From Sulfurihydrogenibium sp. (GTDB taxonomy: Bacteria > Aquificota > Aquificia > Aquificales > Hydrogenothermaceae), in assembly GCF_028276765.1 (NCBI RefSeq), contig NZ_JAPYVU010000002.1, positions 6,066 to 70,065 on the forward strand: DNA of 64,000 nucleotides, written 5' to 3'. The notes below the pieces were generated by a model. That model saw only the letters and a program-made list of their open reading frames with translations. It ran no database searches and was not told where the DNA came from. Below, piece after piece: positions 4,590 to 60,119 of the stretch; the first letter of the stretch is position 1, and each line of letters starts with the position of its first letter. Both the position numbers and the translations under genes were made by a program.

Positions 4590-4671
4590 GTTAAACATTG
4601 ATGAATACACATTAAGCGTTGCTAAAAGCGAGTTGTTTATATTGGTGATTTTTACAGAATTTAAAAAGGAG

Positions 4672-4797
4672 GTCCTTAGGATTTCGTCCTCAAGGATGAC
4701 AAAAAAAGATTGGTTGATAAACATTAGAGAAAAAGATAATTTTATATGTCATTCTGTAGCCGGCGAAGAATCTCATGTTTTTTTAAATTTCTCACCC
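4672..4797 (+). repeat. intergenic mosaic repeat cluster (hairpin B, hairpin D, box E)
   Basis: GTCCTTAGGATTTCGTCCTCAAGGATGAC (4672-4700), GTCATTCTGTAGCCGGCGAAGAATCTC (4748-4774), AATTTCTCACCC (4786-4797). Confidence 0.85.
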
Positions 4798-9340: not shown

Positions 9341-9473
9341 AGTTATCTTTTGTATAGACAAACATTCTACGTGTAGCAAATATCCAAATATACATACCAG
9401 CCTGTTCCAAAAAAGTTTTTGATAGGCATTATCTTATCTGGCTATCATTTTGTAACCGTGTAAGAAGCTCCAA

Positions 9474-9573
9474 TTTTTCTTTTCAAGTCAAAAAATCAAA
9501 AAAGAGATCCTTCGGCTTTACAGCCTCAGGATGACAAGGAAAGGTAAATTTACAAAAATTTTGGAACACTCTC
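9474..9573 (+). repeat. two-hairpin element copy (C-B-A part; D arm vestigial)
   Basis: TTTTTCTTTTCAAGTCAAAAAATCAAAAAAGAGATCCTTCGGCTTTACAGCCTCAGGATGACAAGGAAAGGTAAATTTACAAAAATTTTGGAACAC. Confidence 0.85.
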
Positions 9574-16345: not shown

Positions 16346-16618
16346 GGCAATTCATGAATTGATTCAGCACCCATAATCTTTTACTACCTCGCTTATACGT
16401 TAGAAATTCAGTAAAAGTAGGAGATTCTTCGCTGACCATAAAATAAAATGGCAGCTTTACTTTTGTAAGAGCAATCTCGAATCATCCCTCTTTTACTTTT
16501 CCGCTTCATTTTAATTATCCATGAAAACGTAAGTCCAAATGAACTCTTTTTAGAGAACCTTCAACTTAAAACCTCAGGTCGACCGGAAAGGTAAACTTGT
16601 GAGAATTGTGGAACACTT
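16346..16618 (+). repeat. degenerate mosaic cluster (box F, D remnant, A end) upstream of the CRISPR leader region
   Basis: GGCAATTCATGAATTG (16346-16361), GGAGATTCTTCGC (16419-16431), ...CCTCAGGTCGACCGGAAAGGTAAACTTGTGAGAATTGTGGAACAC (ends 16616). Confidence 0.7.
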
Positions 16619-16689
16619 TTCATTTTCTGCTTGACAGATAGAAAATTTTTTTGTATATTTATAATAGCTTTTTAATTTTTTAACTGTAC

Positions 16690-16706
16690 CTTGGCAATTG
16701 AATAGG
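16690..16706 (+). promoter_or_regulatory. 17-nt box CTTGGCAATTGAATAGG, copy 1, downstream of TTGACA/TATATT-TATAAT promoter-like hexamers
   Basis: Identical to the box at 17202-17218. Preceded by cTTGACAgatag...TATAAT (about 16631-16666). Confidence 0.35.
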
Positions 16707-17163
16707 TAAGCCCGCACAAGCTTATTTTACGTGAGAACGTGAAATGTGAGACGTGAAAAGTTAGAGATAAGTTTATCAATATCTTAGTGATTTTTGTTTG
16801 ATTGCTTGACGGCTTGGTGAGATGATTTACAAGTCAGTAAAGCTAAGGTATTGATAATGTGATTTTATTTTTTGATGTTTGATTTAAGCCTGTGTAGTAA
16901 TGGCTTGAAAGAGATTTTTTGAAAAGTGAATGTAAGTATTTTTTAAATTAAACTTTTTAATTTTGAAATTTTTAATGCTTAATTTTTTGAAAATTTGTAA
17001 TTTTTTATTTTAAAATTTTTTGAGATCGGGAAGTTAAGGAGTGATATTTTCCGCCCCTTTCTGAGTTTTGGGTTTTCAGTAGTTGGCTTGTGATGGGATG
17101 TTAAAAGATAAAATATAATAATATATTTTCTGTATATCGAGGTTTGCTGCAAAAAACTTCAAC

Positions 17164-17218
17164 TTGCGGATTTTTTAAAAATTTGGTATAATGTTTTACA
17201 ACTTGGCAATTGAATAGG
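17164..17218 (+). promoter_or_regulatory. candidate CRISPR leader promoter plus conserved box, copy 2
   Basis: TTGCGG (17164-17169), 17-nt spacer, TGgTATAAT (extended -10; TATAAT at 17187-17192), then CTTGGCAATTGAATAGG at 17202-17218. The first repeat starts at 17256. Confidence 0.4.
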
Positions 17219-17255
17219 CTTTCTGCGATTTTATTTTTGATTAAAAATTTAACGG

Positions 17256-18151
17256 GTTTGTAGCCTACCTATGAGGAATTGAAACCTTATAGAAGGTGGG
17301 GCTTCCTGCTTCAACGCATGAGTTTGTAGCCTACCTATGAGGAATTGAAACACTACTTTACCGACACCTAATCTTTGGATATATTCAGGTTTGTAGCCTA
17401 CCTATGAGGAATTGAAACCTTTTTCTTCTTCACTCAAATCTTTATGCAACTCATGTTTGTAGCCTACCTATGAGGAATTGAAACCCAAGAGGCTTAAAAT
17501 TTCCCTGACGAGGCCTTTGGCGTTTGTAGCCTACCTATGAGGAATTGAAACAGGAGTAGGACGTGCCCTTTTCAAATAATAGTTACCAGTTTGTAGCCTA
17601 CCTATGAGGAATTGAAACTGAGCTTAGTTTTACCTGCAGATAATCAGGGAGGTGGAGTTTGTAGCCTACCTATGAGGAATTGAAACCGGTCGTCATCTCC
17701 GCTGTACGGGGAACTCCCATACGTTTGTAGCCTACCTATGAGGAATTGAAACCCTTTACACCCATTGTCATCAGAGGAAGAGGATGATGTTTGTAGCCTA
17801 CCTATGAGGAATTGAAACGTGTTCTTTAAAGATGTAGGTTCTGGAGATTATCTCGTTTGTAGCCTACCTATGAGGAATTGAAACCTTAATGCTTTGGCAA
17901 GAGACCAAGAACAGAAGATAAGGTTTGTAGCCTACCTATGAGGAATTGAAACTTGTATCACATGTAAGATAGAATTCTTCTTTATTTAAGTTTGTAGCCT
18001 ACCTATGAGGAATTGAAACTCTTCAGAGAGGATTTGTCCTTCTTCCAACCTCTTTGTTTGCAGCCTACTTATGAGGAATTGAAGCCAAGTCTTATTTCAG
18101 CTGTAATGTATTTTCCTATTCGTTTGCAGCCTACCTATGAGGAATTGAAAC
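17256..18151 (+). CRISPR. CRISPR array: 14 repeats of 30 nt (GTTTGTAGCCTACCTATGAGGAATTGAAAC) and 13 spacers of 36-38 nt
   Basis: Repeat starts: 17256, 17322, 17389, 17455, 17522, 17589, 17657, 17723, 17789, 17855, 17923, 17990, 18056, 18122. The last two repeats are degenerate (GTTTGCAGCCTACTTATGAGGAATTGAAGC and GTTTGCAGCC...), which marks the trailer end. An AT-rich leader lies upstream. The repeat ends in ATTGAAAC, the usual Cas6-type 8-nt crRNA 5' tag, consistent with + strand transcription. Confidence 0.97.
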
Positions 18152-18187
18152 ATTTTGAAAAGGTTTTGATAATGGTATTTCTTCTTT

Positions 18188-18408
18188 GTCATTCTATAGC
18201 CGGCAAAGAATCTCACTTTTTCATTTTCTAAAAGATAAGATCCTTCACTTCGTTCAGGATGACAAAGAACGACCCAATGGTGTCATTCTGCAGCCGGCGA
18301 AGAATCTCATGTTTTTCTTTTAAAGTCAGAAAATCAAAAAAGTGGTTCTTCGGACTAAAGTCCTCAGATGACAGGAAAAGATAAACTTACGAGAATTTTG
18401 GAACACTA
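18188..18408 (+). repeat. mosaic cluster immediately after the CRISPR trailer: D, B, then a complete D-C-B-A unit (18282-18408)
   Basis: GTCATTCTATAGCCGGCAAAGAATCTC (18188-18214), GATCCTTCACTTCGTTCAGGATGACA (18239-18264), GTCATTCTGCAGCCGGCGAAGAATCTC...AAAATCAAAAAAGTGGTTCTTCGGACTAAAGTCCTCAGATGACAGGAAAAGATAAACTTACGAGAATTTTGGAACAC. Confidence 0.9.
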
Positions 18409-18463
18409 TTATCAAAAATGCTATAATAAATACTCTTAAATACTCTATTTCGGGTGATTAAAA

Positions 18464-19534
18464 TTGATTACAGACTCAGAAAAACAAAAACTTATTGACT
18501 ATACAATAAAGCTTGTTAATATTCCATCTGTTATAGGCAATGAAAAAGAAATAGCAAACTTTGTAGAAGATTTTTTGAAAAATTACAATCTAAACATCAT
18601 CAGACACAACAATTCTATAATAGCTTATGATAAATTAGAGCCATCAAAAAAGACAATTGGGTTTATTGGTCATCTTGATACAGTACCCGGAACAAATGAT
18701 TTTACCGGTCAAATAATAGAAGATAGGATATACGGACTTGGTGCAAGTGATATGAAAGGTGGTCTTTCTGTTATGATGGCTTTGATAGACCACTTTTCTG
18801 ATAAAGAAAAATCATACAATACTATCTATGTATTTTACGAAAAAGAAGAAGGTCCTTATGTAGATAATGGATTAGAGCCGTTATTGTCTCAATATAATAT
18901 AATTCAAAAATCAGATTTAGCCTTTGCCTTAGAGCCAACTAACAACATCGTTCAGGTCGGATGTCTTGGAACGATGCATGTATCAGTAATTTTTGAAGGA
19001 AAAAGAGCCCATTCGGCAAGACCATGGCAGGGAGAGAATGCAATCCATAAATCTGTAAACTTTCTAAAAAGACTTTCTGAGTTTGGAATAAAAGAATATG
19101 ATTTTCAGGGAATTAAATACTATGAAGTTATGAACGCTACAATGGTTAGCTTTTCTGGCGGAAGAAATATAATTCCGGATAAATTTGAGATAAATGTAAA
19201 TTACAGATTTGCACCGGGTAAGTCAATAGAGCAGGCAAAAGAAGAGCTTTTAAATCTTGTAAACAATGAAGCAAAGGTTGAGTTTACAGACGTTGCACCA
19301 TCCGGCAATGTTTGTCTTGATAATCCAATTTTAAAAGATTTTATATCTAAGTACAATCTGCCAATAGAAGCAAAGCAGGCTTGGACAGATGTTGCAAGGC
19401 TATCCTTATACGGAATTGATGCTGTAAACTTTGGACCCGGAGACCCGGCCCAAGCACATCAAAAAAATGAATACATTCCTATAAAAAACTTGTTTGATAG
19501 TTATGAAATTTTCAAAGATTTTCTAAGTCATTAA
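18464..19534 (+). CDS. M20 family metallopeptidase (DapE/ArgE-like desuccinylase/deacetylase)
   Basis: 356 aa. GHLDTVPG and GASDMKGG metal/catalytic blocks. TTG start with GGGTGA SD. Confidence 0.75.
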   Translation: MITDSEKQKLIDYTIKLVNIPSVIGNEKEIANFVEDFLKNYNLNIIRHNNSIIAYDKLEPSKKTIGFIGHLDTVPGTNDFTGQIIEDRIYGLGASDMKGGLSVMMALIDHFSDKEKSYNTIYVFYEKEEGPYVDNGLEPLLSQYNIIQKSDLAFALEPTNNIVQVGCLGTMHVSVIFEGKRAHSARPWQGENAIHKSVNFLKRLSEFGIKEYDFQGIKYYEVMNATMVSFSGGRNIIPDKFEINVNYRFAPGKSIEQAKEELLNLVNNEAKVEFTDVAPSGNVCLDNPILKDFISKYNLPIEAKQAWTDVARLSLYGIDAVNFGPGDPAQAHQKNEYIPIKNLFDSYEIFKDFLSH

Positions 19535-27004: not shown

Positions 27005-27268
27005 GAGTGCTGTAAAAATTCTTGTAAGCTTATCTTTCCGTATCATCCTGTGGCTGTAAGCCGAAGGGTCTTCTCTTTTAAAAATTAAGGAAAATAGGAG
27101 ATTCTTCGCTTCGCTCAGAATGACATCTTTGAGGTCAAGATTATTTGCCGGCTACAGAATGACAAATAAGGCAATCGTTAACATACTTTTGCTTTCTCTG
27201 TCATCCTGGGGCTGCAAAGCCGAAGGATCTCTTCTTTAAATTTTATAAAAAACAATAATTTCTCACCC
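27005..27268 (-). repeat. mosaic cluster: complete unit in reverse orientation (27005-27124), extra D and B hairpins, box E
   Basis: GAGTGCTGTAAAAATTCTTGTAAGCTTATCTTTCCGTATCATCCTGTGGCTGTAAGCCGAAGGGTC...GGAGATTCTTCGCTTCGCTCAGAATGAC; then TTTGCCGGCTACAGAATGAC, GTCATCCTGGGGCTGCAAAGCCGAAGGATCTC, and AATTTCTCACCC (27257-27268). Confidence 0.88.
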
Positions 27269-29811: not shown

Positions 29812-29868
29812 ACGTCGGATGAGAAATTTAATAAAAACATAAGATTCTTAGCTTAACTGAGAATGACA
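29812..29868. repeat. box E (reverse) plus D-like hairpin
   Basis: GGATGAGAAATT (29817-29828) and AAGATTCTTAGCTTAACTGAGAATGAC (29841-29867). Confidence 0.7.
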
Positions 29869-30134
29869 AAGAAAGCTCCTTTCTAATGCTTATTAATAGA
29901 GAAAAAAGGAAGGACAGATCAAGTTTCTGCCATTGATCTTTTAACCACTGTAGAATGTTTTAGACTGTCCTTCCTACAACCTGAATTAGAAAATTAGACT
30001 TTAAAGAAACTTTTGAAGTTAAATCTAACCCACTTGAGTTTGAAAAGAAAATAAAGCCTTATCTTGAGACTGTTCTAAAAATCAATATTGTCATCGTATA
30101 TTGAACCCCAGATATTGATATTAAGAATCATTAC

Positions 30135-30295
30135 TAATAATGCTTGGCTTTGCAAAAAATATTTTAACAAAATCAGTAGTGATGCAGTCAAGACCAAGCC
30201 TAACGGTGCATGCTAACGCATGCAGTCTTGACTGCATCACTGATTTTGTTATTAGATAACTAAGCAAAGCCAAGCAAGGAAAGCCAAGCATTATT
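30135..30295. repeat. three-level nested inverted repeat (long imperfect palindrome)
   Basis: Outer arms: TAATAATGCTTGGCTTTGC (30135-30153) against GCAAAGCCAAGCA (30264-30276) or AAAGCCAAGCATTATT (30280-30295). Middle arms: AACAAAATCAGTAGTGATGCAGTCAAGAC (30166-30194) against GTCTTGACTGCATCACTGATTTTGTT (30225-30250). Core: TGCATGC-TAAC-GCATGCA (30207-30224). Confidence 0.85.
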
Positions 30296-30427
30296 TAGCT
30301 CTTAAGCTTAAGAGATAGTGTTTATTCAATCAGACGCGTGCTCCTCTATCTATCTCGTGCGCGCGCTACCAGATATAACAAAAATGTAATAACGATGACA
30401 GACAAGCAAGTAAAATCAATAGTTAAA

Positions 30428-30537
30428 GATTACAAGAAGATTACAAAAAGATTACAAGTTTGTAATGTTTAATGCTTGATTATCAACAAGTAAGATGAAA
30501 AATTACAAATTTGTAATGTTTAATGCTTGATTTTCAA
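30428..30537 (+). repeat. iteron-like array: three GATTACAA(G/A) repeats at 11-bp phase plus a 36-nt direct repeat carrying the ATTACAA-NN-TTGTAAT palindrome
   Basis: GATTACAAG at 30428, GATTACAAA at 30439, GATTACAAG at 30450. ATTACAAGTTTGTAATGTTTAATGCTTGATTATCAA (30451-30486) is repeated at 30502-30537 with 2 mismatches. Confidence 0.85.
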
Positions 30538-30597
30538 GCCTTTATAGTCGTGTCGTACTTTAATTAGATTATTAACAAGCCCCTATAGCAGACATAG

Positions 30598-30727
30598 AAC
30601 ATTCTGAGCTGAGCGAAGCGAAGAATCTCCTATTTTTCTTTTCAAATCAAAAAATCAAAAAAGAGATCCTTCGGACTTCGTTCTTAGGATGACACGGAAA
30701 GGATGCTTACAAAAATTTTGGAACACC
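30598..30727 (+). repeat. complete two-hairpin D-C-B-A unit
   Basis: ACATTCTGAGCTGAGCGAAGCGAAGAATCTCCTATTTTTCTTTTCAAATCAAAAAATCAAAAAAGAGATCCTTCGGACTTCGTTCTTAGGATGACACGGAAAGGATGCTTACAAAAATTTTGGAACAC. Confidence 0.9.
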
Positions 30728-30729
30728 CT

Positions 30730-31041
30730 CAGCCTTATCTTAAAAAGTTTAAAAAGTCAGGTATGCTTATCATAATGGAACATACAGGAGTTTATCATTT
30801 AAAGCTTGCTGATTATCTGTATGAAAATAACTATCAGGTAGCAGTGGTAAATCCATTTTCAATAAAGAAATTTATGGAAGCTAAAATGTCAAGAGTTAAA
30901 ACAGATAAAGCTGATTCATACTTCATAGCAGGAAAGTACAGCATGTGTAAAGAAAAGTGGCAAGATAAAGAAAATGGAAATCTATATGCAAGAAAGATAC
31001 TATATATGGCAGCATTATCAGCAATAGGGTTTTACAAATAA
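30730..31041 (+). pseudogene. IS110-family transposase remnant (5'-truncated, internally deleted and frameshifted)
   Basis: MEHTGVYHLKLADYLYENNYQVAVVNPFSIKKFMEAKMSRVKTDKADSYFIA resembles the DEDD N-terminal domain of IS110/IS116/IS902 transposases. It jumps directly to a frameshifted C-terminal piece (...NLYARKILYMAALSAIGFYK) matching the fragment at 44308-44640. Confidence 0.7.
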
Positions 31042-31265
31042 CATTCGGAGGCTGTAAGGTTAAGGATCTCATGTTTTGATTTCTTTTAAAAGAAAAGTAG
31101 AAAGGAGCGGATGCGGATATTCCTCGGATGGCTTTAGAGAGAATAAAAAAATTAATTAATTTTTGGATTTAGTTAAAATTTTAAAGCAGTTTAAGAGCTA
31201 ATTGGCAAATTGGTATATATTATATATAAAAAACAAGCTATTGATTAAGCAGGAGGTGAAGTTTT

Positions 31266-32501: not shown

Positions 32502-32582
32502 TTTAAAAAATGAGTTTCTTTTGTACGTTATCCTTGCTTTAGTCTGAAGGATTTCCTGTTTTATTGTTATTTGAAAGAGTAA

Positions 32583-32710
32583 GAGTGTTCCAAAATTCTC
32601 GTAAGCTTACCTTTCCATATCATCCTGAGGCTGTAAGCCGAAGGATCTCCTCTTTTGATTTTTTGATTTGAAAAGAAAAACAGGAGATTCTTCGCCGGCT
32701 GCAGAATAAC
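32583..32710 (-). repeat. complete two-hairpin unit, reverse orientation
   Basis: GAGTGTTCCAAAATTCTCGTAAGCTTACCTTTCCATATCATCCTGAGGCTGTAAGCCGAAGGATCTCCTCTTTTGATTTTTTGATTTGAAAAGAAAAACAGGAGATTCTTCGCCGGCTGCAGAATAACG. Confidence 0.9.
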
Positions 32711-32903
32711 GAAAAAGTTTGCTTTTTTTCTAATGCTTGTCATTCAACCTTTCGATGTCATCTTAAGGACATAAATCCAAATGGTCTACTACTTAAAAAG
32801 ACAATAAAGAGCATGAGAATTTGGAAGTAAATTATAGTCATCTATAGCCGTACAAAGAGCCATTTGTTTTAACCAAATTCCTCATCCTGACGTATTACCT
32901 AAT

Positions 32904-41159: not shown

Positions 41160-41440
41160 GGACGGTGCTACATAGCAGATGCTACAGGTTTTGCTTATGG
41201 AGATAGTTTTATCATAGGACTACCTTTTATAGCTGATAAAGGTTATGATTCAATAAATATAATACAAAAATCTTAGACATTGGACTTATCCCTGCTATAG
41301 AGATAAAACAAACTCTTAGAATAAAAATAAAGCATTCAGTGAGGCAGTTATCAAAGGAAATTAGAATTTTACATGATTTTAACCTAATTTTGAGAAGTAA
41401 TTTTTTAATCTTTCGCACCAGTCTTATAGAAATACAATAA
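41160..41440 (+). pseudogene. DDE transposase fragment (IS4/IS5-superfamily-like), frameshifted
   Basis: My translation: ADATGFAYGDSFIIGLPFIADKGYDSINIIQKS*, then in another frame ILDIGLIPAIEIKQTLRIKIKH... xADKGYDS resembles the second catalytic-Asp block of DDE transposases. No intact ORF. Confidence 0.45.
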
Positions 41441-44211: not shown

Positions 44212-44295
44212 GGCAATTCATGAATTGTCTCTACTTTCTCGCCATTTTAAAATTTTAAATAAAGAGATCCTTCGGCCTTACGGCTTCAGGATGTT
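44212..44295 (+). repeat. box F plus B hairpin
   Basis: GGCAATTCATGAATTG (44212-44227) and GAGATCCTTCGGCCTTACGGCTTCAGGATG (about 44266-44295). Confidence 0.8.
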
Positions 44296-45947: not shown

Positions 45948-46454
45948 AAACTCTGTCTAATTACTCGAAATAATATATCAATTCAAAAACTTTAATACAA
46001 AGGGTTTTGTGTGTCCACTTTATTCTACATTTTACACAAAAAGAAAAAATCTAACTTATATGATTTTTAAGCTTCTATAAAGTCCTAAGAATCTTCTCTT
46101 TCATCGCTATTTGGAAAGAAAAGAAGGACAAAAAGGGGGCTCTTTGTCTGATATAGAATGAAAATGTTGGTTTTTTGAAACACTTCTAATTCTAAAAAAC
46201 CGAGCTTGTTCCAAAAATCGAAAAAACTTCTTCTCAAAATTAAGACTTATAGGATAGATAAAAATATACAAATTAAAATTATGTAGAAATCCCAAAGAAT
46301 AGGCCAAGCAATAGTTAACTTCTTAGCTTTACTTTCACTCTAAGAGTTTACTTTATCTTTATAGCAGGGAATTGAATCATCCTCTGCTTTTGCATATGAT
46401 AGAATAAATAGCATAAATGCAAAAGACTTTTTAGAGAAATCAGTAGAGGATGAT

Positions 46455-48401: not shown

Positions 48402-48727
48402 GGGCAGCACATGAATTGCCCAATACCCATCAGTCTATAGCTTTCTTGCTTTTAAAATTCTATAACTGTATTTAAGATATTCCTTGGGGGTGAGAAATTA
48501 GTGGTTTTTATAGAATTAAAAAAAAGAGAGATCCTTCGGCCTCAGGATAACAGAGAAAGATTGAATGATAAGCATTAAAGGAAAGGATAACCTTGGGGTG
48601 TCATTCTGCAGCCGGTGAAGAATCTCTTGTTTTTCTTTTGAAATCAAAAAATCAAAAGAGGAGATCCTTTAGATAAGGCTCTCAGGATGACACGGGAAAG
48701 GTAAAGTTGCAAAAATTTTGGAGCACT
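48402..48727 (+). repeat. mosaic cluster: box F, box E (reverse), B hairpin, complete D-C-B-A unit (48600-48727)
   Basis: GGGCAGCACATGAATTGCC (48402-48420), GGGTGAGAAATT (48488-48499), GAGATCCTTCGGCCTCAGGATAAC, GTCATTCTGCAGCCGGTGAAGAATCTC...GGAGATCCTTTAGATAAGGCTCTCAGGATGACACGGGAAAGGTAAAGTTGCAAAAATTTTGGAGCAC. Confidence 0.9.
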
Positions 48728-48773
48728 CTTATCTTTTGGATTTTTCGCACAAGTTATGAATAAAAATTAATTT

Positions 48774-59838: not shown

Positions 59839-60119
59839 GGAATGTTCTAAAATTTTTATAAGTTTACTTTTTTGTAATTCTAAGGACTTTAATCTGAAGG
59901 ATCTACTCGTTTAAAAAAGTTAGAAAGTAAGTGAACAGTGAGAGGTAAAGGAAGGAGATTCTTTGCCGGCTGCAGAATGACCAATAAGACAACCGTTAAC
60001 TTACATGTGTATGGGTAATTCATAAATTGCCCCACTCTTTTACTTTCTTTGTCACTATAGGAATTTTATCCTGAAGGAACTTGCTTTTAAATTTTATGAA
60101 AACTACTAATTTCTCACCC
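59839..60119 (-). repeat. mosaic cluster upstream of the large helicase gene: degenerate reverse unit (59839-59981), box F, box E
   Basis: GAATGTTCTAAAATTTTTATAAGTTTAC...CTGAAGGATCTAC...GGAGATTCTTTGCCGGCTGCAGAATGAC; GGGTAATTCATAAATTGCCC (60013-60032); AATTTCTCACCC (60108-60119). Confidence 0.8.

What the first reader, a model, noticed from the sequence alone, without database searches (positions are those of the whole stretch)
18282..18408. Family of ~125-130-nt two-hairpin intergenic elements: at least 8 copies in 64 kb
Seen in sequence: one unit recurs in both orientations. Its layout is hairpin D (GTCATTCTGCAGCCGGCGAAGAATCTC), TGTTTTTCTTTT, the A-rich box C (AAATCAAAAAATCAAAAAAGAG), hairpin B (ATCCTTCGG-loop-CCTCAGGATGAC) and end A (GGAAAGGTAAnCTTACnAnAATTTTGGAACAC). 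Copies: 9474-9573 (+, partial), 16419-16618 (+, degenerate), 18282-18408 (+), 27005-27124 (-), 30598-30727 (+), 32583-32710 (-), 48600-48727 (+), 59839-59981 (-, degenerate). Isolated D or B hairpins occur at 4672-4774, 18188-18264, 27150-27232, 29841-29867, 44266-44295 and 48528-48555. The outer stems are conserved, while the inner stem and loop vary with compensation. For B these are GGACT-AAA-GTCC, GGCT-TTAC-AGCC and GGCTTACAGCC. For D they are GCAGCCGGCGA versus GAGCGAAGCGA. This points to selection for structure rather than sequence. Some D variants contain GCGAAGC, known as an unusually stable DNA mini-hairpin. All copies are intergenic, often at convergent or divergent gene ends and next to IS debris, tRNA genes and the CRISPR array. 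Inference: this is a MITE/REP-like element or a small-RNA gene family. Spurious ORFs in the track (such as CHSVAGEESH) come from it.
Basis: seen in the sequence. Interest (0 to 1): 0.62.

Follow-up and report, generated by a model that had tools for sequence, protein, structure and literature searches.

The report
Hairpin-carrying miniature transposon family (MITE)
The repeated two-hairpin unit is a miniature non-coding transposon that has colonised about 3% of this small hot-spring bacterial genome by borrowing the enzyme of a 1-kb insertion sequence. That is ordinary in kind, but its hairpin cargo also occurs almost letter for letter in many other bacterial phyla, where it clusters around a small nuclease gene.

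Summary
The unit at 18282-18408 belongs to a dispersed family with 554 intervals (50.7 kb, 2.9%) in this 1.75-Mb genome.

It is flanked by 10-bp target-site duplications.

Eleven of 17 resolvable full copies are precisely absent from a sister genome, which holds the target sequence once. A 995-bp insertion sequence has the same ends, the same 10-bp duplication and a 302-aa DDE transposase. It occurs in exactly the 3 of 9 genus genomes that hold the element. This is therefore a MITE. Nothing supports a small-RNA gene family.

The compensatory stem changes are real. No described family matches, so I class it as a new member of a known kind.

Three extras stand out:
- The two hairpins are copies of one module, GTCA-stem-GAGCG-N-AGCGA-stem'-TCTC. 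The module also rides a second MITE chassis here (26-36-bp duplications).
- The module occurs in many phyla with covarying stems.
- It is strongly concentrated within 200 nt on both sides of small GIY-YIG nuclease genes.

That last link resembles REP/RAYT, but it is unproven and not obligate.

The parts
18265..18411 (+). The copy named in the finding. It has a variant left end (AAGAACGACCCAATGGT) in place of the standard left terminal repeat. Then come hairpin D (18282-18308), the T-rich/A-rich spacer, hairpin B and the right terminal repeat TTTTGGAACAC.
   Evidence: The same left end recurs in 6 copies. One of them, C77:10776, has an 11-bp duplication and an empty site in G005.
18182..18271 (+). 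Adjoining partial unit: a D-type hairpin (18188-18214) and a B-type hairpin (18231-18264). Together with the next copy it forms a D-B-D-B mosaic.
9399..9573 (+). Full-length copy with both terminal repeats (CAGCCTGTTCCAAAAAA ... TTTTGGAACACTCTC). It has a degenerate D region and extra internal bases.
16413..16618 (+). Degenerate copy. Its right end abuts the promoter-like TTGACA-17-TATATT (16631-16659) at the far end of the CRISPR leader.
27006..27130 (-). Copy lacking the standard left terminal repeat.
   Evidence: A metagenome contig lacks 27058-27216.
27188..27251 (-). Partial unit (B-type hairpin region).
30066..30729 (+). A copy split by a 514-nt insert. The left terminal repeat and the start of D are at 30066-30094, the insert is at 30095-30608, and the rest of the element is at 30609-30729.
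   Evidence: Metagenome contigs join 30094 to 30609 (insert absent) and 30054 to 30731 (whole element absent, 11 nt shared).
31042..31126 (-). Weak partial match to the element.
   Evidence: E = 0.0014.
32582..32780 (-). Chimera. The right-hand 133 nt (32582-32714) are the D-spacer-B-right terminus of family A. Upstream of that is the B-hairpin and spacer of the second chassis (family B).
48480..48729 (+). Chimera. The family-B left terminus (GGGGTGAGAAATT), B hairpin and spacer join at the shared D hairpin (48600-48626) to the family-A spacer, B hairpin and right terminus.
59840..59983 (-). Degenerate copy.
4655..4784 (+). Isolated B-type and D-type hairpins.
44237..44293 (+). Isolated B-type hairpin, upstream of the tRNA-Val/Asp genes.
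46080..46183 (-). Partial copy (left terminus to the spacer).
41162..41360 (+). Remnant of the parent insertion sequence (transposase fragments with stop codons).
   Evidence: C52:47227-47425.
46207..46339 (-). Remnant of the right end of the parent insertion sequence.
   Evidence: C52:52272-52404.

Best explanation
The unit is one copy of a miniature inverted-repeat transposable element (MITE).

Anatomy. The complete element is about 153 bp and has no coding capacity. Its parts, in order, are:
- a 15-nt terminal inverted repeat (GAGNNTGTTCCAAAA);
- 8-9 nt of linker;
- hairpin D (GTCATTCTG...GAATCTC);
- a T-rich then A-rich spacer;
- hairpin B, which is the same module in reverse complement;
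- about 25 nt of linker;
- the inverted terminal repeat.

Mechanism. It does not move by itself. A DDE transposase recognises the shared termini and inserts the element at staggered cuts 10 bp apart, which leaves a 10-bp direct duplication. The enzyme is a 302-aa protein (Pfam DDE_Tnp_1, distantly IS5/IS4-like) encoded by a 995-bp insertion sequence with the same termini. Insertions survive almost only between genes. A clear subset sits 8-10 bp from a TTGAC(A) hexamer, including the promoters at the far end of CRISPR leaders. Copies then decay and recombine at their shared hairpins. That produces the truncated and mosaic copies and many of the isolated hairpins.

Shown: the family, the termini, the duplications, the empty sites in a sister species, the insertion sequence with matching ends and duplication length, and their co-occurrence.

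Inferred: that this transposase is the mobiliser, how the cuts are made, and the target preference as a property of the enzyme.

Not explained by this model: why the hairpin cargo is conserved across phyla.
For: - Termini: an alignment of full copies shows conservation starting at GAG and ending at CTC, and the two ends are reverse complements.
- Duplications: 49% of 109 full copies have a flanking direct repeat of at least 9 bp with at most 1 mismatch, against about 1% with shuffled partners. The modal length is 10 bp.
- Empty sites: of 17 full copies whose flanks map cleanly to the complete sister genome G005, 11 are absent there, with the flanks overlapping by 10-12 nt. Examples are GCATTTAACT at C22:32349 and CCTATTCTGT at C82:20417. 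One copy is filled and 5 are rearranged.
- Partner element: G005:827147-828141 is 995 bp. It has ends GAGCCTGTTCCAAAAT...TTTTTGGAACAGGGCTC and an intact 302-aa ORF (PF01609, 45 bits against a cut-off of 23). A second copy has the 10-bp duplication TAAAACCTAT.
- Co-occurrence: transposase homologues are found in G000, G005 and G006 only. Those are the 3 of 9 genus genomes that hold the MITE; the 6 MITE-free genomes have none.
- Location: 95% of repeat bases in G005 are intergenic, and 43% of convergent, 36% of divergent and 13% of tandem gaps hold a repeat.
- Decay: at the site of a full G005 copy, G000 has an internally deleted copy.
- Target preference: TTGAC/TGACA starts 8-10 nt outside the 3' end in 35 of 283 flanks, with about 0-1 at other offsets.
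- Fold: the consensus folds as single-stranded DNA into a foldback, -26.5 kcal/mol, z = -5.4.
Against: - G000 itself has only deleted or stop-interrupted copies of the insertion sequence. Present-day mobility in this strain is therefore unproven. An intact copy could also sit in an assembly gap.
- The 130 full copies from the two genomes are all different, with mean pairwise identity 74%. This is not a single recent burst.
- Half of the full copies show no recognisable duplication.
- Many copies lack the standard left terminus or are mosaics.
- Two insertions have 46-52-bp flanking duplications, which a 10-bp staggered cut does not explain.
- The transposase scores below the curated cut-offs of all named IS5/IS4 models (72 bits against 140).
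- The same hairpins ride a second chassis with other termini. They also occur in phyla that lack this transposase. The cargo therefore has a history, and perhaps a mechanism, of its own.
Confidence: 0.8

Rival explanations
1. The replicating unit is the hairpin module itself, a REP/REPIN-like element. It would be propagated by a single-copy host-encoded nuclease: the small GIY-YIG protein, or a Y1 (RAYT) transposase. The terminal repeats would be incidental passengers.
For: - Isolated hairpins outnumber full elements: 554 intervals against 90 full copies.
- D and B form an inverted doublet, as in a REPIN.
- The module sits in two chassis with different termini and in many phyla.
- The only small GIY-YIG gene of G000 (C19:2304-2588) has 3 hairpins on each side.
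- In 80 metagenome loci with homologues of that gene, strict hairpins reach 2.0 per kb within 100 nt on both sides, against at most 0.46 per kb beyond 200 nt. There were none in shuffled loci and none inside the gene.
- 8 of 14 genome loci show the same clustering.
Against: - G005 and G006 carry hundreds of hairpins and have no GIY-YIG homologue.
- G000 has no Y1 transposase.
- The polymorphic insertions examined are bounded by terminal repeats and duplications, not by hairpin edges.
- Isolated hairpins can arise by internal deletion.
- Genome-level co-occurrence in 101 genomes of another phylum is weak: 3 of 7 hairpin-bearing genomes have the gene, against 16 of 94 genomes without hairpins.
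Confidence: 0.12
2. The units are primarily functional RNA elements: small-RNA genes, or cis-acting transcript ends (two-way terminators or 3' stabilisers) kept by selection. Their repetition would then be secondary.
For: - Compensatory stem changes.
- Each hairpin is followed on its own strand by a T-rich run (consensus).
- Repeats are enriched in convergent gaps, 43%.
- Metatranscriptome contigs of 1.3-2.6 kb contain the D-hairpin region.
Against: - No Rfam family matches, even at E up to 10.
- The terminator scan does not call any copy between 16000 and 34000.
- The window copy folds as RNA no better than shuffles (z = -0.96).
- RNAalifold finds no consensus structure over the whole element.
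- Copies lie in both orientations, and there is no shared promoter.
- The GCGNAGC loop is a motif known for stability as DNA rather than as RNA (my recollection of Hirao and colleagues, not checked here).
- Terminal repeats, duplications and empty sites show that the copies arrived by transposition.
- The RNA evidence consists of contigs only and may include DNA.
Confidence: 0.06
3. The copies are a local duplication or an assembly artefact confined to this window.
For: None beyond the clustering of some copies near the CRISPR array and the insertion-sequence debris.
Against: - Copies lie on most of the 84 contigs.
- They occur in two other genomes of the genus, including a complete one with 526 intervals.
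- They occur in independent hot-spring metagenomes.
Confidence: 0.01

Closest known systems
Bacterial MITEs, for example the Correia elements of Neisseria, RUP of Streptococcus pneumoniae and Nezha of cyanobacteria (named from my own knowledge)
   Same: Short (100-200 bp) and non-coding, with terminal inverted repeats and target-site duplications. Hundreds of copies, mostly intergenic. Termini are shared with an insertion sequence that supplies the transposase in trans.
   Different: - The termini and the duplication length (10 bp) differ. Correia and RUP duplicate TA.
- The partner is a divergent DDE_Tnp_1 element below the cut-offs of every named IS5/IS4 model.
- The interior is not a deleted version of the parent. 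It is a pair of opposed copies of a hairpin module that also occurs in other phyla and in a second chassis.
REPINs and BIMEs mobilised by RAYT (Y1/HUH) transposases (Bertels and Rainey 2011, PMC3116915; Nunvar et al., PMC3686654)
   Same: - Two inverted copies of a short palindromic unit, separated by a spacer.
- Hundreds of intergenic copies and mosaic arrangements.
- Elsewhere, the same hairpins cluster on both flanks of a usually low-copy nuclease gene.
   Different: - G000 has no RAYT gene.
- Copies have terminal repeats outside the doublet, and duplications.
- The conserved flanks are GTCA...TCTC, not GTAG.
- The flanked gene is a GIY-YIG nuclease, not an HUH enzyme.
- That gene is absent from two of the three genomes that carry the family.
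IS5/IS4-type insertion sequences (Pfam PF01609; NCBIfam NF033579 gives the best match)
   Same: About 1 kb, with a single DDE transposase ORF and short terminal inverted repeats. IS4-type elements typically make duplications of about 9-12 bp (my knowledge).
   Different: - It scores 72 bits against a curated cut-off of 140, so it belongs to no named equivalog.
- Only 55 relatives were found among 5.8 billion proteins by the word-indexed search. All are from metagenomes or unnamed.
Slx1 / YhbQ / YazA (UPF0213) GIY-YIG structure-selective nucleases (PMC7017083; PDB 1zg2)
   Same: The small gene flanked by the hairpins has a GIY-YIG domain (62 bits). Its only match among solved structures is UPF0213 protein BH0048 (E = 0.004). 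Eukaryotic Slx1 cuts branched and hairpin-like DNA.
   Different: The similarity is weak. No activity on these hairpins is known, and no link between this family and repeats was found in the papers searched.

Membership tests
MITE (miniature inverted-repeat transposable element) | Short, with no coding capacity | tested here: met
   The consensus is 153 bp. Copies are 140-175 bp.
MITE (miniature inverted-repeat transposable element) | Terminal inverted repeats | tested here: met
   GAGNNTGTTCCAAAA at both ends in inverted orientation. 90 non-overlapping copies in G000 have both ends.
MITE (miniature inverted-repeat transposable element) | Target-site duplication of fixed length | tested here: met
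   The mode is 10 bp. 49% of copies show a repeat of at least 9 bp, against 1% in controls. 11 empty sites hold the target sequence once.
MITE (miniature inverted-repeat transposable element) | An autonomous element with the same termini encodes the transposase | tested here: met
   A 995-bp insertion sequence in G005 has the same termini and a 10-bp duplication. It co-occurs with the MITE in 3 of 3 MITE-bearing and 0 of 6 MITE-free genus genomes. G000 itself holds only broken copies.
MITE (miniature inverted-repeat transposable element) | Mobilisation in trans by that transposase | not testable with these tools
   This needs a transposition assay.
REP/REPIN-RAYT system | A RAYT (Y1_Tnp, PF01797) gene in the genome, flanked by the repeats | tested here: not met
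   There is no PF01797 match in G000 or G006, and one in G005.
REP/REPIN-RAYT system | Insertion without target-site duplication or terminal repeats | tested here: not met
   Both are present.
REP/REPIN-RAYT system | Inverted doublet of a palindromic unit | tested here: met
   D and B are reverse-complement versions of one module.
IS5 family (NCBIfam equivalogs), for the partner element | Score above the curated cut-off of an IS5 or IS4 model | tested here: not met
   The best is NF033579 at 72.4 bits against a cut-off of 140. IS4_1 scores 46.5 against 115. Pfam DDE_Tnp_1 is met at 45.3 bits against 23.
Any curated RNA family (Rfam 15) | Match at the gathering score, or a convincing sub-threshold match | tested here: not met
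   The window yields only tRNAs and CRISPR repeats. On a copy at E up to 10 there is only generic hairpin noise.
Intrinsic terminator | G+C-rich stem followed directly by a T run | tested here: not met
   None of the 9 terminator-like sites between 16000 and 34000 falls on a copy. T-rich runs do follow the hairpins, but after 3-6 other bases.

The most novel reading that the evidence does not exclude
The D/B hairpin belongs to a pan-bacterial module, GTCA-N4-GAGCG-N-AGCGA-N4'-TCTC. Its stems covary and it has a GNA loop. Under this reading the module is the substrate of small Slx1/UPF0213-like GIY-YIG nucleases, whose genes it flanks on both sides. That would be a second kind of repeat-plus-nuclease partnership, analogous to REP/RAYT but with a different enzyme class. 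In this hot-spring genus the module has been captured as cargo by two unrelated DDE-transposon chassis, so it now spreads without the nuclease.
Probability: 0.25. Interest if true: 0.78.

Novelty: new member of a known kind. Interest (0 to 1): 0.5.

Why it matters
For this genome:
- The family explains about 3% of the DNA.
- It explains the spurious short ORFs and many contig breaks and mosaics.
- It explains the repeat debris next to tRNA genes and next to the 13 CRISPR arrays.
- It gives insertion polymorphisms that can serve as strain markers in hot-spring populations.

More broadly, there are three leads:
- A MITE whose insertions pile up 8-10 bp from -35-like hexamers, including CRISPR-leader promoters.
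- A sister MITE with unusually long (26-36 bp) target duplications.
- A hairpin module conserved almost to the letter across phyla and concentrated around a small GIY-YIG nuclease gene of unknown function. If that gene acts on the hairpin, it would give a function to a widespread uncharacterised protein family. It would also explain a very common source of junk ORFs in metagenome annotation.

Tried and rejected
- RAYT as the mobiliser. PF01797 is absent from G000 and G006.
- The small GIY-YIG protein as the mobiliser in this genus. It is present only in G000. Only 3 of 120 cross-phylum hairpin loci have it within 8 kb.
- Genome-level co-occurrence of hairpins and GIY-YIG in 101 genomes of another phylum. 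The result, 3 of 7 against 16 of 94, is inconclusive. The first pattern for this test had one base too many and caught only a 28-nt variant.
- A shared insertion-sequence superfamily across phyla. None of 20 hairpin-bearing genomes from other phyla has a homologue of the transposase. The resemblance of the Acidobacteriota termini (ACAGGCTGCGGAAAAA) to GAGGCTGTTCCAAAAA may therefore be chance.
- Rfam at gathering and at permissive thresholds found nothing.
- The terminator and promoter scans gave counts equal to shuffles, with no call on any copy.
- RNAalifold on 130 full copies gave no consensus structure.
- A long-duplication 'A2' subfamily. Most copies with the GCTTGYAAAAA left end have 9-14-bp repeats, so the two 46-52-bp cases are exceptions.
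- A parent element for family B. Pairs of its termini 0.5-2.8 kb apart enclose host genes, not a transposase.
- The 18-mer 'leader promoter' count of about 200 per genome is largely chance at 4 mismatches in this A+T-rich DNA, so I did not use it.
- RNA evidence. Only metatranscriptome contigs were available and they are not decisive.
- Literature. I found no paper on MITEs in this genus or order and no paper containing the hairpin sequence.
Full report
**1. What is at the coordinates**

It holds, in order:
- a D hairpin, GTCATTCTGCAGCCGGCGAAGAATCTC;
- a T-rich run;
- an A-rich box;
- a B hairpin;
- the end ...AATTTTGGAACAC.

The D 27-mer with up to 3 mismatches occurs 6 times in the window and never in 100 shuffles. 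The one exception is the isolated hairpin at 29841-29867, which was not recovered.

The window is contig C52:6066-70065 of a 1.75-Mb draft genome with 84 contigs and about 32% G+C. I infer the genus Sulfurihydrogenibium, for three reasons:
- the complete relative G005 has 1,838,442 bp, which I recall as the size of strain YO3AOP1;
- the holders in public runs are hot-spring metagenomes;
This identification is not verified.

**2. Size of the family**

- blastn with the 127-nt unit gives 333 hits in the genome, 121 of them at least 100 nt long.
- The profile search gives 742 hits. Because the element is palindromic, many of these are the same place hit on both strands.
- The hits merge into 554 intervals in 405 islands. 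They cover 50.7 kb, or 2.9% of the genome.
- There are 90 non-overlapping full-length copies.
- The complete sister genome G005 has 526 intervals (48 kb) and 40 full copies.
- In the genus, only 3 of 9 species genomes hold the family (G000, G005, G006). The other six have nothing comparable, nor do 32 more distant relatives.

**3.

I aligned 84 copies with 30 nt of flank. Conservation continues about 23 nt upstream of D (GAGaCTGTTCCAAAAATCCACAT). That stretch is the inverted complement of the 3' end (AAAATTTTGGAACACTCTC). Conservation starts sharply at GAG and stops at CTC.

The full unit is therefore about 153 bp with 15-nt terminal inverted repeats. B is the reverse-complement version of the same module as D: GTCATCCTGAGGCCGAAGGCCGAAGGATCTC compared with GTCATTCTGAGCGAAGCGAAGAATCTC. 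The whole element is thus a long imperfect palindrome. As single-stranded DNA the consensus folds back on itself (-26.5 kcal/mol, z = -5.4). The two small hairpins alone are modest under nearest-neighbour parameters (-2 to -6 kcal/mol).

**4. It inserted by transposition**

- Of 109 full copies, 49% are flanked by a direct repeat of at least 9 bp with at most one mismatch. With shuffled partners the figure is about 1%. The modal length is 10 bp.
- I fetched the whole of G005 and mapped the flanks of each G000 full copy onto it. Of the 17 that resolve, 11 are empty in G005, 1 is filled and 5 are rearranged.
- At each empty site the two flanks overlap by 10-12 nt, so the target sequence is present once.
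  - C22:32349-32500 is flanked by GCATTTAACT on both sides, and G005 reads ...ctgaGCATTTAACTAtactttt.
  - C82:20417-20567 duplicates CCTATTCTGT.
- Of the 65 repeat islands that resolve, roughly 45 are shared with G005 and 16 are empty there. The family is therefore older than the split of the two species and was still active after it.
- Metagenome contigs show further structural alleles at copies in the window.

**5. The partner element**

Terminus-like sequences outside the small copies led to degenerate 0.6-0.9-kb elements in G000: C35:7741, C47:8831, C2:136, C59:8764 and C17:26866. They have the same ends and contain fragments of a DDE transposase.

G005 has an intact copy at 827147-828141:
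- It is 995 bp, with ends GAGCCTGTTCCAAAAT ... TTTTTGGAACAGGGCTC.
- It holds a 302-aa ORF.
- The ORF scores 45 bits on Pfam DDE_Tnp_1 against a cut-off of 23.
- Its best NCBIfam model is an IS5 equivalog at 72 bits against a cut-off of 140.

A second, 95%-identical copy at 1777228-1778222 is flanked by the 10-bp duplication TAAAACCTAT. That is the same length as for the small element.

Homologues of the transposase are found in G000 (21 fragments), G005 (9) and G006 (4). None is found in the six genus genomes that lack the small element. G000 has only deleted or stop-interrupted copies, including two remnants in the window at 41162-41360 and 46207-46339.

The protein family is rare. The word-indexed search found 55 relatives among 5.8 billion proteins, all unnamed or from metagenomes.

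**6. Where the copies sit**

With a simple ORF-based gene call, genes cover 88% of G005, yet 95% of repeat bases lie outside them. Repeats occupy 43% of convergent, 36% of divergent and 13% of same-direction gaps.

A TTGAC or TGACA motif starts 8-10 nt outside the element's end in 35 of 283 3' flanks and in 24 of 290 5' flanks. Other offsets have about 0-1 each. The duplicated 10 bp is therefore often the sequence just upstream of a -35-like hexamer.

Seventeen of these flanks in G000 are the promoter-like TTGACAGATAGAAAATTT at the far end of the roughly 640-nt leaders of its 13 CRISPR arrays. The window example is the copy at 16413-16618, the leader, and the array at 17256-18151. Empty sites in G005 show that some of these are independent insertions at the same spot.

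**7. Structure**

Inside the family, the inner stem of B carries compensated variants:
- The variants are GGCC/GGCC, GGAC/GTCC and GGCT/AGCC.
- One pair reads C-G 50 and A-U 41. The next reads C-G 71 and U-A 29.
- 87% of cells are paired, and overall pairing lies about 14 standard deviations above shuffled partners.

The outer stems hardly vary. D comes in two main versions, GAGCGAAGCGA and GCAGCCGGCGA, which do not align base for base.

These counts do not correct for shared descent among copies.

**8. The RNA reading**

- No Rfam family matches.
- The terminator scan calls no copy.
- The window copy as RNA folds no better than shuffles.
- Metatranscriptome contigs do contain the D region inside longer pieces. 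That fits passive co-transcription and is weak evidence.

I conclude that the element is mobile DNA. Secondary use as a transcript end remains possible but is not shown.

**9. Beyond the finding: the hairpin is a module with a life of its own**

(a) A second chassis. A second abundant MITE in this genome (family B) is about 175 bp, with termini ACCTTGGGTGAGAAATT...AATTTCTCACCCGACGT and 216 terminus-like hits. It carries the same two hairpins in the opposite order. Its duplications are long: 11 of 25 copies have 21-43 bp, with a mode of 33-36 bp. Three are confirmed by empty sites in G005. Window copies 32582-32780 and 48480-48729 are A/B chimeras joined at the shared D hairpin.

(b) Other phyla. 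The hits include Chloroflexota, Acidobacteriota, Bacteroidota, Nitrospirota, Planctomycetota, Patescibacteria, Cyanobacteria and Helicobacter. The variable base is the middle of a GNA loop. Many loci show the same inverted doublet.

Among 68 neighbouring hairpins that the search pattern did not constrain, 53 have a fully complementary 4-bp stem, against 34% with shuffled partners. The stem versions seen are TTCT/AGAA, TCCT/AGGA, CCCT/AGGG, TTCC/GGAA, TGCT/AGCA, TGTT/AACA and TCGC/GCGA.

(c) A small nuclease gene. The only small GIY-YIG gene of G000 has three hairpins on each side. In 80 metagenome loci encoding homologues of it (52-95% identity), strict hairpins number 78:
- there were 0 in shuffled loci and 0 inside the gene;
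- density is 2.0 per kb at 0-100 nt and 1.7 per kb at 100-200 nt, on both sides;
- density is at most 0.46 per kb further out;
- 29 of the 80 loci have a hairpin within 200 nt of the gene.

The same is seen in 8 of 14 genome loci. One example is a Calothrix genome, with five tandem hairpins upstream and five inverted ones downstream.

(d) Limits of the link. The link is not obligate:
- G005 and G006 lack the gene.
- In 101 genomes of another phylum, 3 of 7 hairpin-bearing genomes have the gene, against 16 of 94 others.
- None of 20 hairpin-bearing genomes of other phyla has the Sulfurihydrogenibium transposase.

The gene's closest solved relative is a UPF0213 protein. That is the YhbQ/YazA/Slx1 family of structure-selective nucleases (PMC7017083). 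I found no paper linking this family to repeats.

**10. Verdict**

The thing is a MITE family with an identified partner insertion sequence. I found no description of it in the papers searched. It is therefore a new member of a known kind.

What makes it more than routine is:
- its load on a 1.75-Mb genome;
- its habit of landing next to -35-like hexamers and CRISPR leaders;
- the sister family with very long duplications;
- the conserved hairpin cargo, whose association with GIY-YIG genes is a real observation with an open meaning.

Noticed in passing
G000 C28:23176-23352, C5:3885-4061, C14:166-347 and about 100 more; window 48480-48600 holds a left half: A second MITE family (about 175 bp, termini ACCTTGGGTGAGAAATT / AATTTCTCACCCGACGT) carries the same two hairpins in the opposite order. 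Its target-site duplications are unusually long, 26-36 bp. Three were confirmed by empty sites in the sister genome. No parent element was found.
   Followed up: partly
G000 C19:2304-2588 (outside the window); loci L274-L367: A 95-aa GIY-YIG (UPF0213/Slx1-like) gene is flanked on both sides by the hairpin module. In 80 metagenome loci and 14 genome loci from other phyla, the hairpins are concentrated within 200 nt of homologous genes. The gene is missing from G005 and G006.
   Followed up: partly
window 30095-30608: A 514-nt insert sits inside the D hairpin of a MITE copy. It holds the nested palindrome and the GATTACA iterons that other notes describe. One metagenome contig joins 30094 to 30609, so forms without the insert exist. 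The insert may itself be mobile.
   Followed up: partly
window 16619-17255 and 12 other CRISPR leaders of G000: All 13 arrays of this repeat type have a leader of about 640 nt. Its far end carries TTGACA-17-TATATT and is a hot spot for MITE insertion. Metatranscriptome contig depth is very high at 17100-17250, close to the first repeat.
   Followed up: partly
G000 C63:1186-1329; G006 C122 (L155:1495-1647): Two MITE insertions are flanked by 46-52-bp direct duplications instead of 10 bp. The sister genome holds the sequence once. The mechanism is unknown.
   Followed up: partly
G000 C30:6006-7833, C59:4646-6472, C15:16373-18162, C65:49878-51669, C81:20082-21815, C12:7147-8466: A separate 1.8-kb repeat is present in about six copies, 86-92% identical. 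It encodes a 555-aa protein that looks like TnpB/IS605 OrfB, judged by eye from the sequence. It was not scanned against families.
   Followed up: no
window 27058-27216: An 11.5-kb contig from another hot-spring metagenome (X4) lacks exactly these 159 nt between two hairpin units. This suggests deletion by recombination between repeats.
   Followed up: no
genomes G050 and G124 (the phylum of locus L046, titled Acidobacteriota): These genomes hold 166 and 104 canonical hairpins, mostly as inverted doublets 41-60 nt apart. In G050 the doublets lie between other terminal repeats (ACAGGCTGCGGAAAAA) with an apparent duplication of about 9-10 bp. The same doublet architecture therefore exists on a different chassis in another phylum.
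   Followed up: partly
window 18398-18427: The right terminus of the copy supplies a TTGGAA that lies 18 nt from a TG-TATAAT, just upstream of the gene starting at 18464. This could be a chance promoter-like match.
   Followed up: no
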